This document shows positions 29,301-31,004 of a stretch of 64,000 nt of DNA, piece by piece. The notes beneath the pieces are model-generated. The model was not told where the DNA came from, did not search any database, and saw only the letters and a list, made by a program, of their open reading frames with translations. The DNA comes from Octopus vulgaris (taxonomy: Eukaryota): NCBI GenBank assembly GCA_951406725.2, contig OX597841.1:7378001-7442000 (forward strand). Reading direction: 5' to 3'. The translations under genes and the position numbers were made by a program. Positions within the stretch are counted from its first letter, which is position 1. Each line of letters opens with the position of its first letter.

Positions 29301-30021
29301 TCGATGTTGACTTTACCGGCGTTTGTCTTTGGAAACCTCGTCCTTCTCAGAGAACTTTACCTCAACGATAACAGCATGAATCATTTTGACGAAAATGTAT
29401 TCCATGGTTTACGATCCCTAAGACACCTTGATCTTAGCGGTAACAAGTTCCGTGTGATCGAGGCACATACCCTGGCTGAATTCAGCCATATTAGAACCTT
29501 ACGGTCAATCCAGCTGGAGCGAAACCCATGGCAGTGCGCTTGCGACAATCAACAGTTCTACCATTGGCTTAATTACAATTACACAATTGTGCGTAACAGG
29601 AGAGACATACGGTGTAACCACAAGATCGTTGTTGACCAACGTCCGTCTGCATTTAAGTGTCAGCCGTCCTTAACCAGGAAAATCGTTGTGATTGGCCTCA
29701 TAATGTCTGTGATTATATTAGCATTTTGTTTAGCTTTCTTCGTAAGATATCGCCGTGAATGTGTGGCCTGCATCTATGTCAAGCTGGGGTTGCAGTGTTG
29801 TCGGTACAGAGATCGATCGTGCAGGCCATTCGATATCTTTCTCGTTTATGATCGGCGAGATGAGGACTGCCGCAAATGGATTGAATCGACCTTGCTACCC
29901 AGGCTCGAGTACAGCGGGAAGCACGCTTTCAAGATTTTCTATCCAGACCGCAACGCCATCACCATCATCAGGGGTAGATCCAGGGCCGGAAACGCTGCCA
30001 CAACGCCTCCCCGCAGCGTTT

Positions 30022-30052
<31 letters not shown>

Positions 30053-31004
30053 TGACTCCATTGCTGACACCACCACCACCACCACCACCACCACCAACAC
30101 CGCCGCCGCCGCCAAGGAGAGCAACTACGGTAACGACACAAGCAATGCCACTGTTCCCACAGGTGCCACCGCCACCACCTCCAACAACACAGACCTTCCT
30201 GCAGCCATCAGCGCCACCACCAACGCCACCACAGTTACTACTACGAACTACACCAACAACAACAACAACAACAACGCCGCCGCCACCGCCACCAGCCCCA
30301 CCGGTAACCTCGCTGCTGCCATCAGCCAGTGTCGCTGCACAATGGTTATCGTGTCCCGCGGCACTGGCTCCAGCCCGTCATGCATGGCGGCACTAAGGGT
30401 CGCCGTTGCTCTCTCTAAGGGCCAGATTTTGATGGGTGTGGGTGGAAGCAGTGGAGGGGTATACGATGGTGACGATGACGACGACGGCAGCCATGGGAGC
30501 AGGTTCGGAGGAGAGCGAGGGAGAGGAGAGCAAGGAGAAGTCGACGAAGAGGAAGGAGGGGTAAGTCACCACCGACACCAGCTCCCCTTACAACAACAAC
30601 AACAGCATCACCATTATCATCATCAGGATCACCCTCACAGCCTCCAACCTCATCAGCATCATCACAATCGTTATCATCGTCATCATGCCCCCAGCCACCA
30701 CTATCGCCATCATCATCATCATCACCATCGTCGTCATCATCAGCAGCAGCAACGGCATCGGGTTGTGTTGGTGTTTTTCGGTGACGTGGACATCTCGACG
30801 CTGGATGATGAGATCAAACGCCGGGTGCAGCGCCGGGAGTACCTGACTGCCCGGGGCCGTTGCTTCTGGCACAGGCTGCAATATGAACTGCCGAAGCCGG
30901 GTCCCTGCCGTGGGCAAGAGCTTAACGAACACGAGGCGTCAGTGGACGAGGAGACGGCTATCATACAGAACTCTGTCCTGGCTGAGTATACCTCATGCAT
31001 GTAA
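26334..31004 (+). CDS. Toll-like receptor, multi-cysteine-cluster (protostome/Toll-type), single coding exon, ~1556 aa
   Basis: ATG in aggATGg context; hydrophobic signal-like segment ending ..CISHA-Q; 20+ LRRs (LxxLxLSxN); internal LRRCT (GNPIVCSC) plus LRRNT (CSTKCDC); ~5 further LRRs; LRRCT (NPWQCAC); TM ~29682-29743; TIR boxes FDIFLVY, YPDRN and FWHRL. Confidence 0.95.

What the first reader, a model, noticed from the sequence alone, without database searches (positions are those of the whole stretch)
29829..30900. TIR domain split by two ~110-aa microsatellite-derived inserts and lacking key conserved residues
Seen: TIR box 1 (FDIFLVY) and box 2 (YPDRN) are followed by an Ala/Thr/Asn-run insert (~29955-30300) at the BB-loop position. 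After alphaB-betaC-alphaC, a Gly/Asp/His/Gln insert (~30425-30755) precedes betaD and box 3 (FWHRL). Both inserts are in frame with no stops. Established: the BB-loop Pro-Gly is needed for adaptor (MyD88-type) assembly, and alphaC normally reads WCxxE, whose Glu is catalytic in NADase TIRs. Here there is no PG at the usual place and the motif reads SCMAA. Inference: a decoy or MyD88-independent receptor, possibly with a His-rich metal/pH-sensitive or condensate-forming tail tunable by repeat length.
Basis: partly seen in the sequence, partly recalled or inferred. Interest (0 to 1): 0.72.

Follow-up and report, generated by a model that had tools for sequence, protein, structure and literature searches.

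The report
Octopus Toll receptor with split TIR
An intact octopus Toll-like receptor carries two repeat-rich stretches of about 105 residues inside loops of its signalling (TIR) domain; it belongs to an old mollusc receptor lineage that already lacks the usual adaptor-docking motif, so it likely does not start the standard immune signal and the inserts are likely tolerated growth in loops that were already free to change.

Summary
Window 26334-31004 (+) is one open frame of 1556 codons, a multi-cysteine-cluster Toll-like receptor. Its TIR has in-frame inserts of about 106 aa (BB loop) and 108 aa (CD loop). O. bimaculoides has both. AlphaFold folds a confident TIR core around them.

The insert-free cuttlefish orthologue lacks them, as do 18 of 18 tree-placed relatives from chiton, snails, bivalves and cuttlefish. 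That clade instead keeps a distinctive betaE/EE/alphaE face and tail motif.

The inserts are octopus-lineage additions. They diverge fast (163/197 identical against 131/134 for the core), and a third 95-aa insert sits in the ectodomain. They push the Pfam TIR score below its cut-off, and the gene is absent from a published octopus TLR list.

Best reading (0.6): an old non-MyD88-nucleating receptor with tolerated loop expansions. A metal, pH or condensate role has no support here. No function was tested. The scan's notes hold no look-alike; they do report other in-frame expansions in this genome.

The parts
26334..31004 (+). Single-exon coding frame of a 1556-aa multi-cysteine-cluster Toll-like receptor (P0001)
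   Evidence: orthologues P0002, P0003, P0124
26334..26453 (+). Likely signal peptide (hydrophobic run aa 24-36, cut near SHA/QE)
   Evidence: read from the sequence; no predictor run
26727..27029 (+). Third octopus-only insert, about 95 aa, in the Cys-rich N-terminal cap; includes a 31-nt match to a nearby minisatellite unit
27069..28841 (+). First LRR block ending in the first LRR-CT cysteine cluster
28842..28889 (+). Poly-Gln linker, 11 aa longer than in cuttlefish, 5 aa longer than in O. bimaculoides
28929..29669 (+). LRR-NT, second LRR block and second LRR-CT
29682..29744 (+). Transmembrane segment; a GTAAGA splice donor at 29742 is used by the TIR-less model P0122
29826..29972 (+). TIR core 1: betaA (box 1), alphaA, betaB, degenerate box 2 (PDRN)
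   Evidence: 50/50 identical to O. bimaculoides; pLDDT 77-96
29973..30290 (+). Insert 1 in the BB loop, about 106 aa, Thr/Ala/Asn-rich with GCC, ACC and AAC runs
30291..30416 (+). TIR core 2: predicted alphaB, betaC, alphaC (SPSCMAAL; no Trp, no Glu)
30417..30740 (+). Insert 2 in the CD loop, 108 aa: Gly/Asp/Glu half, then His/Gln/Arg half
30741..30893 (+). TIR core 3: betaD, alphaD, betaE with the clade motif YLTARGR, alphaE and box 3 (FWHRLQYELP)
   Evidence: 45/46 identical to O. bimaculoides, 36/47 to cuttlefish; clade columns
30894..31001 (+). C-terminal tail with the acidic-then-hydrophobic clade motif (EETAII) and a Tyr near the end
   Evidence: 36/36 identical to O. bimaculoides; clade tails
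45000..45014 (+). Only place in the window that supplies the VTRY-stop end of the TIR-less model P0122 (AG acceptor before it); not confirmed in transcripts

Best explanation
This is an intact Toll-like receptor gene of a mollusc-wide lineage whose TIR lacks the BB-loop docking motif, so it likely cannot seed MyD88 assembly and likely works as a brake or non-canonical co-receptor through the face it keeps (betaE, EE loop, alphaE) and its tail, while the two inserts are likely tolerated, near-neutral repeat expansions in loops already freed from docking duty. Shown: open frame, orthology, clade-wide motif loss, octopus-only inserts, fast change in the inserts and slow change in the core. Predicted: a folded TIR core with disordered inserts. 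Inferred from mammalian structures: MyD88 is seeded when its EE face docks on the BB face of the upstream TIR, with side contacts between BC and CD faces; this TIR has lost or blocked BB and CD and kept EE. Not tested: ligand, partner, tissue, any signalling output.
For: Frame open over 1565 codons. Both inserts in frame in the O. bimaculoides RefSeq protein. Identity to it: TIR core 131/134, LRR blocks 798/838, inserts 163/197; core against inserts p=9e-6, core against LRR p=0.26; the 82 aligned residues after insert 2 differ at one place. Cuttlefish orthologue P0124/P0273 has a compact TIR without PG or Glu; tree: window + O. bimaculoides + cuttlefish SH-aLRT 100, inside a clade with bivalves, snails (91) and a chiton (88), apart from the other two single-TIR mcc receptors of this genome. 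0 of 18 clade members have RDxxxG or the Glu. Mean pairwise identity in the clade: BB+alphaB 0.15 (others 0.35), betaE+EE 0.48 (others 0.34), alphaE 0.62. AlphaFold: 119 residues at pLDDT 90 or more in three pieces, inserts mostly under 50; best match IL-1RAcPb TIR, Z 15.1, rmsd 2.8, 135 aligned, tied within 1 Z with Hydra TRR-2. Expansion is gene-wide: a 95-aa ectodomain insert and a poly-Gln. Contigs of runs X1 and X4 (guessed to be RNA, one study) bridge 3 of the 4 insert borders unspliced, with no joints listed. Assembly geometry: PMC8110528 and PMC13276377.
Against: No function of any clade member was measured or found in print. PMC13276377 places receptor TIR binding on another MyD88 surface, so a BB-less receptor is not proven unable to recruit it. 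Neutrality of the inserts is not calibrated: no DNA of the orthologue was available for dS, and the Gly/Asp/Glu half of insert 2 looks better kept than the runs. The conservation profile is not corrected for relatedness, the 31 comparison rows are a mixed set, and part of the alphaE conservation is structural. The tree is a quick one without bootstraps, clade support 88-91. Only two octopus species show the whole TIR; the O. sinensis models leave the frame inside insert 1. RNA status of the runs is a guess by the tool. Fold-search ranks show the fold, not the function.
Confidence: 0.6

Rival explanations
1. The inserts are a gained function: the His-rich loop binds metal, senses pH or drives condensates, or the Tyr-acidic stretch is a phosphorylation site, and repeat length tunes it.
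For: Both inserts persist in two species; insert 2 holds 29 His in 111 residues; its Gly/Asp/Glu half has few changes and no perfect triplet run.
Against: Inserts are 81-84% identical with many length changes, far below the core; His spacing differs between the species; cuttlefish and, by length (1206 aa), giant squid do without them; a similar-sized insert sits outside the cell too; CAT/CAC/CAG slippage gives His/Gln runs without selection (inference).
Confidence: 0.15
2. The receptor still signals through MyD88 and NF-kB, using surfaces other than the BB loop, with the inserts looping out harmlessly.
For: The core folds as a normal TIR; oyster TLRs signal through MyD88 (PMC3788107); receptor TIRs bind an interfilament MyD88 surface (PMC13276377); Pro is not universal in TLR BB loops.
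Against: The whole R-D-x-x-x-G motif, not only Pro, is gone in 18 of 18 clade members and the region is the least conserved of the domain; alphaC, needed for signalling in IL-1RAcP (PMC9213720), is also non-canonical.
Confidence: 0.12
3. The TIR is a decaying relic; the working product is an ectodomain-only or TIR-less receptor used in adhesion or patterning, like cytoplasm-independent actions of fly Toll-2, -6 and -8.
For: A TIR-less model exists (P0122, donor 29742 to acceptor 45000); O. sinensis models are frameshifted in insert 1; fly Tolls can polarise myosin without their cytoplasmic parts (PMC11034934).
Against: The TIR core is as conserved as the LRRs between octopuses and more conserved than them against cuttlefish in two of three pieces (67%, 33%, 77% against 47-53%); a contig of X2 reads through the donor unspliced; the acceptor lies in repeated DNA.
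Confidence: 0.08
4. The inserts are introns or assembly artefacts.
For: One insert border (30740) is not bridged by any listed contig, and repeat zones were skipped; two O. sinensis isoform models differ by 10 aa inside insert 1.
Against: An independent assembly of another species has both inserts at the same places with homologous sequence; X1 and X4 contigs run from core into insert without a joint.
Confidence: 0.03

Closest known systems
Multi-cysteine-cluster (protostome-type, clade alpha) Toll receptors, e.g. insect Tollo/Toll-8 and mussel SPP
   Same: Two LRR blocks with two cysteine clusters, one membrane segment, TIR; Tollo-like proteins are frequent among the hits to the second LRR block.
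   Different: No RDxxxG, no WCxxE, a clade-specific Y-I/L-T-A-R-S/G-R at betaE, a distinctive Cys-rich N-cap, and in octopus two 105-108 aa inserts inside the TIR.
Uncharacterised mollusc-wide divergent-TIR receptor clade (cuttlefish CAE1173594, Mytilus XP_052084445, Mizuhopecten XP_021359091, Liolophura XP_064596143, Patella, Haliotis, Babylonia, Mya, Potamilus)
   Same: Orthologous by tree; same N-cap, same loss of box 2 and Glu, same EE motif, and in most members the same tail motif.
   Different: Only the two octopus proteins carry the inserts; the full-length others are about 1200 aa. Whether this is cluster Y or part of SPP of PMC10279657 could not be settled: Y is described as single-copy and highly divergent but scc-type and bivalve-only, SPP as absent from cephalopods, yet a giant squid member is in that paper's list.
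Non-signalling or inhibitory TIR receptors of vertebrates (IL-1RAcPb; SIGIRR/TIR8)
   Same: A folded TIR that departs from the signalling consensus; IL-1RAcPb cannot transduce NF-kB because of its variant TIR (PMC9213720). SIGIRR as a brake is recalled, not read here.
   Different: These have Ig ectodomains, IL-1RAcPb keeps boxes 1-3, and neither has long loop inserts. Resemblance is by analogy only.
Drosophila Toll-2/6/8 non-canonical signalling through Src, PI3K and Cirl
   Same: mcc receptors acting through C-terminal tyrosines rather than the TIR (PMC11034934); this clade often has a Tyr in its tail.
   Different: Not orthologous (separate clade); Tollo-like proteins keep RDxxxG; no SH2 site was tested here.

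Membership tests
Toll-like receptors, mcc type | LRR ectodomain with two cysteine clusters | tested here: met
   LRR_8 329 bits in 14 stretches; NPIVCSC and NPWQCAC clusters with an LRR-NT between
Toll-like receptors, mcc type | Signal peptide and single transmembrane segment | tested here: inconclusive
   Both evident by eye and aligned with orthologues; no predictor was run
Toll-like receptors, mcc type | Cytoplasmic TIR domain | tested here: met
   Pfam TIR 13.3 bits, under the 21.3 cut-off, but own TIR profile gives 69 bits without and 55 bits with inserts, cuttlefish orthologue 41-46 bits in Pfam, and the model matches TIR structures at Z 15.1
MyD88-nucleating TLRs | Box 2 / BB-loop motif R-D-x-x-x-G | tested here: not met
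   PDRNAITIIRG then insert; 0 of 18 clade members have it
MyD88-nucleating TLRs | Recruits MyD88 and activates NF-kB | not testable with these tools
   Needs a cell assay; no usable octopus MyD88 TIR was found
NADase TIRs (SARM1, plant, bacterial) | Catalytic Glu in alphaC | tested here: not met
   Ala in octopus, Cys in cuttlefish; 0 of 18 clade members, though one clade-like fragment outside the tree (P0129) has Glu
Mollusc-wide divergent-TIR clade | Groups with the clade in a tree built without insert columns | tested here: met
   SH-aLRT 100 with cuttlefish, 91 and 88 for the wider clade; quick tree, no bootstrap
Mollusc-wide divergent-TIR clade | betaE motif Y-I/L-T-A-R-x-R and YELP, Cys-rich N-cap, tail motif | tested here: met
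   YLTARGR, YELP, EETAII present; column counts T 13, A 10, R 12, R 13 of 18
Cluster Y or SPP of PMC10279657 | Assignment of its mussel members to that cluster | tested here: inconclusive
   Members are in the supplement without cluster labels; figures not seen; the M. edulis gene is on the sixth of 14 consecutive accessions, Y is said to be on chromosome 5
Decoy or inhibitory TIR receptors (SIGIRR-like) | Inhibits signalling of other receptors | not testable with these tools
   Needs co-expression assays

The most novel reading that the evidence does not exclude
Molluscs have kept, since before chitons, snails, bivalves and cephalopods split, one Toll receptor whose TIR is an acceptor-only chain terminator: its conserved EE face caps the exposed BB end of a growing TLR or MyD88 strand, and it has no BB face to pass the strand on. 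In octopus, two disordered loops on the BB and CD faces act as bristles that enforce the stop, and their length varies by repeat slippage.
Probability: 0.12. Interest if true: 0.8.

Novelty: new variant of a known kind. Interest (0 to 1): 0.45.

Why it matters
It points to an apparently single-copy, mollusc-wide Toll receptor with a non-canonical TIR for which I found no functional study, and gives a clean natural pair for testing how much a TIR loop matters: cuttlefish without inserts, octopus with. It also shows that repeat expansions inside a domain can hide a receptor from profile-based surveys: the O. bimaculoides protein is not among the 9 TLRs listed for that species in PMC10279657. If the capping idea held, it would be a new way to stop TIR signalling strands. 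If the inserts are neutral, the case is a good example of how far a TIR fold tolerates loop growth, and of modest interest.

Tried and rejected
No RNA holder listed: none of the 24 runs is on record as RNA; X1-X4 are guesses and all are contigs, so level, strand and ends cannot be read. Control stretch 42400-45050: unique bins 43201-43467 and 44803-44891 had no cover in X1, X2, X3 while X17 covered them; this fits RNA but is weak, X4 was not in the control, and most of the stretch is repeats. The TIR-less junction 29741/45000 was not seen; 45000 lies in repeated DNA and 789 loose ends were not shown, so this is undecided. Repeat-length alleles in the inserts could not be read because the tool skips those zones. 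Complex prediction of this TIR with the TIR of a canonical octopus mcc receptor: no answer, alignments not used. Search for shorter homologues: 67 candidates, none passed. Search with the cuttlefish TIR returned 3 proteins and missed the O. bimaculoides protein that should match, and one search missed the cuttlefish protein, so the absence of other octopods or nautilus is uninformative. Octopus MyD88: not identified among the 21 TIR and 23 TIR_2 matches; the four extra TIR_2 places read were other proteins by eye. Idea that the clade equals SPP 'missing in cephalopods': dropped, since a giant squid member is in that list. The careful tree did not finish; the quick tree is used. Chen et al. 2024 on 14 O. 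sinensis TLRs (PMID 38679344) is not held and may include this gene. Literature searches that showed no paper on this gene or on such TIR inserts in titles and abstract starts.

Full report
What is there. Window 26307-31004 (+) is one open frame. From Met 26334 it gives 1556 aa: a likely signal peptide, a Cys-rich cap, two LRR blocks with two cysteine clusters, a membrane segment, a TIR and a 36-aa tail. The named best relatives are Octopus sinensis 'TLR7' and O. bimaculoides 'TLR6' (100% and 95% over residues 880-1215), so this is an octopus genome (G000, C28). A search of G000 with the LRR-CT to betaB part found this gene and one weak paralogue at 28%, so it looks single-copy.

The observation. 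Against the cuttlefish orthologue the octopus has 105 extra residues in the BB region and 108 in the CD loop. The inserts are low-complexity and triplet-periodic, but perfect triplet runs cover only 93 of 345 and 32 of 336 nt. O. bimaculoides has both inserts, in frame, with different run lengths. Contigs from runs guessed to be RNA cover the gene in pieces; X1 and X4 (2 of 4 runs laid, one study) bridge the core1/insert1, insert1/core2 and core2/insert2 borders; the fourth border lies in a zone the tool skips; no joints were listed, and 16 pieces were not shown. I take the inserts as exonic.

The fold. AlphaFold with a 56-row alignment gives three confident pieces (119 of 397 residues at pLDDT 90 or more) around inserts mostly under 50; alphaB forms from the residues just after insert 1. 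The model matches IL-1RAcPb TIR (Z 15.1, rmsd 2.8, 135 aligned), Hydra TRR-2 (14.4), IL-18Rbeta (13.9) and MyD88 (13.8). The cuttlefish TIR folds at mean pLDDT 83.7, its BB region being the weakest part of the domain, and matches TLR and IL-1R TIRs. The alignment was built from TIR relatives, so the prediction leans towards a TIR.

The key correction. A full HMMER search with the last 497 residues found P0124 (56%, 1205 aa), whose cluster holds a protein named from the cuttlefish Acanthosepion pharaonis. Its TIR has no inserts, yet reads IFIPDRNNANLERR at box 2 and NSWSSMCL at alphaC. A quick tree of 51 receptors (490 columns filled in at least 30% of rows, so insert columns drop out; chosen from the top hits plus two octopus paralogues) puts window, O. 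bimaculoides and cuttlefish together at SH-aLRT 100, inside a clade with bivalves and snails (91) and a chiton (88), away from the genome's other two single-TIR mcc receptors and from insect Tollo (names). In a 54-row alignment, 0 of 18 tree-placed clade members have PG, RDxxxG or Glu four places after the alphaC Trp position; of 31 other TIRs, 26 have RDxxxG and 22 the Glu. Five rows were left out of these counts: a duplicate of the cuttlefish TIR, three clade-like fragments not in the tree (none has PG, one has the Glu) and one long branch. So the motif loss is as old as the split of the mollusc classes, and the inserts came later. A giant squid orthologue of 1206 aa in the supplement of PMC10279657 is insert-free by length (only its first part was visible).

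How good are PG and Glu as tests? Of 18 other TLR-type TIR loci fetched from G000, 1 has PG and 17 have RDxxxG. PMC7075850 gives the TLR pattern as H-x-R-D-F-x-x-G and names SARM1 as the only metazoan TIR with known NADase activity. The telling loss is the whole box-2 motif, not Pro, and the Glu is beside the point for a TLR.

Selection. Against O. bimaculoides the TIR core is 131/134 identical, the LRR blocks 798/838, the tail 36/36 and the inserts 163/197 with many length changes (core against inserts p=9e-6). The core is therefore not decaying, and the part after insert 2 is translated. The inserts change about four times faster than the LRRs; without DNA of the orthologue I cannot say whether that equals the neutral rate. 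The growth is not confined to the TIR: a 95-aa insert lies in the N-terminal cap and 11 extra residues in a poly-Gln linker. Two unchecked notes of this scan report in-frame expansions in other genes of this genome.

How it likely works. In MAL and MyD88 assemblies, strands grow by the EE face (betaD, betaE, alphaE) of an incoming TIR docking on the BB loop of the last one, with side contacts between alphaB/alphaC and the CD loop/alphaD (PMC8110528; PMC13276377). In this clade BB+alphaB is the least conserved element (0.15 pairwise identity; 0.35 in the other TIRs) and betaE+EE and alphaE the most conserved (0.48 and 0.62), with a motif of its own (T 13, A 10, R 12, S 15, R 13 of 18). The octopus inserts fall in the BB and CD loops and leave EE alone. 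Most members also keep an acidic-then-hydrophobic tail motif, often with a Tyr behind it. I infer a receptor that cannot offer a BB face to MyD88 and works through EE and the tail: a brake or co-receptor, as IL-1RAcPb fails to signal through its variant TIR (PMC9213720), or a non-canonical signaller, as fly Toll-2 acts through tail tyrosines, Src and PI3K (PMC11034934). Loops with no docking job could then absorb repeat slippage. Against this: PMC13276377 finds receptor TIRs bound to an interfilament MyD88 surface, oyster TLRs do use MyD88 (PMC3788107), and my conservation figures ignore relatedness.

Loose ends. The O. sinensis models change frame inside the GCC run of insert 1 and end in the poly-Pro frame seen at 29746-30396; a one-base slip in an assembly is the likelier cause (inference), a real null allele is not excluded. 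Cluster member P0122 ends AFFVTRY, which needs the donor at 29742 and the only fitting acceptor in the window at 45000; one X2 contig reads through the donor unspliced and the junction is unconfirmed.

What is known. Pfam scores this TIR at 13.3 bits, the O. bimaculoides one at 13.6, under the cut-off of 21.3; the cuttlefish one scores 41-46. My own canonical profile gives a best-domain score of 36 bits with and 69 without the inserts. The 9 O. bimaculoides TLRs listed in PMC10279657 do not include it, while scallop, mussel and giant squid members are listed. I could not map the clade to that paper's Y or SPP cluster. Searches showed no paper on this gene or on such inserts; a 2024 study of 14 O. 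sinensis TLRs was not available and may cover it. What I saw of each paper: PMC10279657, passages, section 13 and supplement searches (long sequence cells are cut, figures not held); PMC7075850, PMC3788107, PMC11034934, PMC8609888, PMC8110528, PMC13276377, PMC9213720 and PMC12521104, passages only; others, search listings only. The labels 'mcc', 'BB', 'CD' and 'EE' come from those passages; SIGIRR as a brake is recalled.

Verdict. Real feature, a new variant of a known kind. The inserts are striking but likely tolerated; the more durable finding is the old, unstudied non-canonical clade behind them. Interest 0.45.

Noticed in passing
window 27003-27033 and 36536-38272: The N-terminal cap insert holds a 29/31 match to the unit of a 29-bp minisatellite (60 copies) 9.5 kb downstream; score 52 against a best of 26 in 100 shuffles. 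A 15-nt in-frame deletion at 27020 is seen in X2, X3 and the O. sinensis model.
   Followed up: partly
window 27470, 28235, 28963, 28980: Four A-to-G differences in run X4 only; two recode (K877R, S883G). They may be A-to-I editing or alleles; no DNA of the same animal was available.
   Followed up: partly
window 29742 to 45000: Annotated TIR-less form P0122 would need a 15,258-nt intron; not confirmed.
   Followed up: partly
window 30025-30052: O. sinensis RefSeq models shift frame in the GCC run and lose the rest of the TIR; assembly slip or null allele.
   Followed up: partly
L022:1282-5559 (+): Another mcc receptor has a Ser/Pro-rich N-terminal extension of about 230 aa, a box 2 ending RDYDVD and Asp for the alphaC Glu; similar extensions appear in cuttlefish and giant squid rows of the PMC10279657 supplement.
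   Followed up: no
L024:1491-4913 (+): A two-TIR Toll receptor, as described for molluscs (SPP-2TIR).
   Followed up: no
L017-L021 (G000 C1, 102.02-102.14 Mb): Five near-identical TLR copies whose frames end just after betaC of the TIR (stop or intron not resolved).
   Followed up: no
L015, L016: Two TLRs with a short Asn/Gly-rich insertion in the AB loop of the TIR.
   Followed up: no
window 32888-33310 (-) and 24947-25234 (-): Frames that look by eye like a mariner transposase fragment and a LINE reverse-transcriptase-gene fragment; resemblance recalled, not searched.
   Followed up: no
window 26238-26239: An AG acceptor after a TAT array 95 nt before the start codon suggests a spliced 5' untranslated exon.
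   Followed up: no
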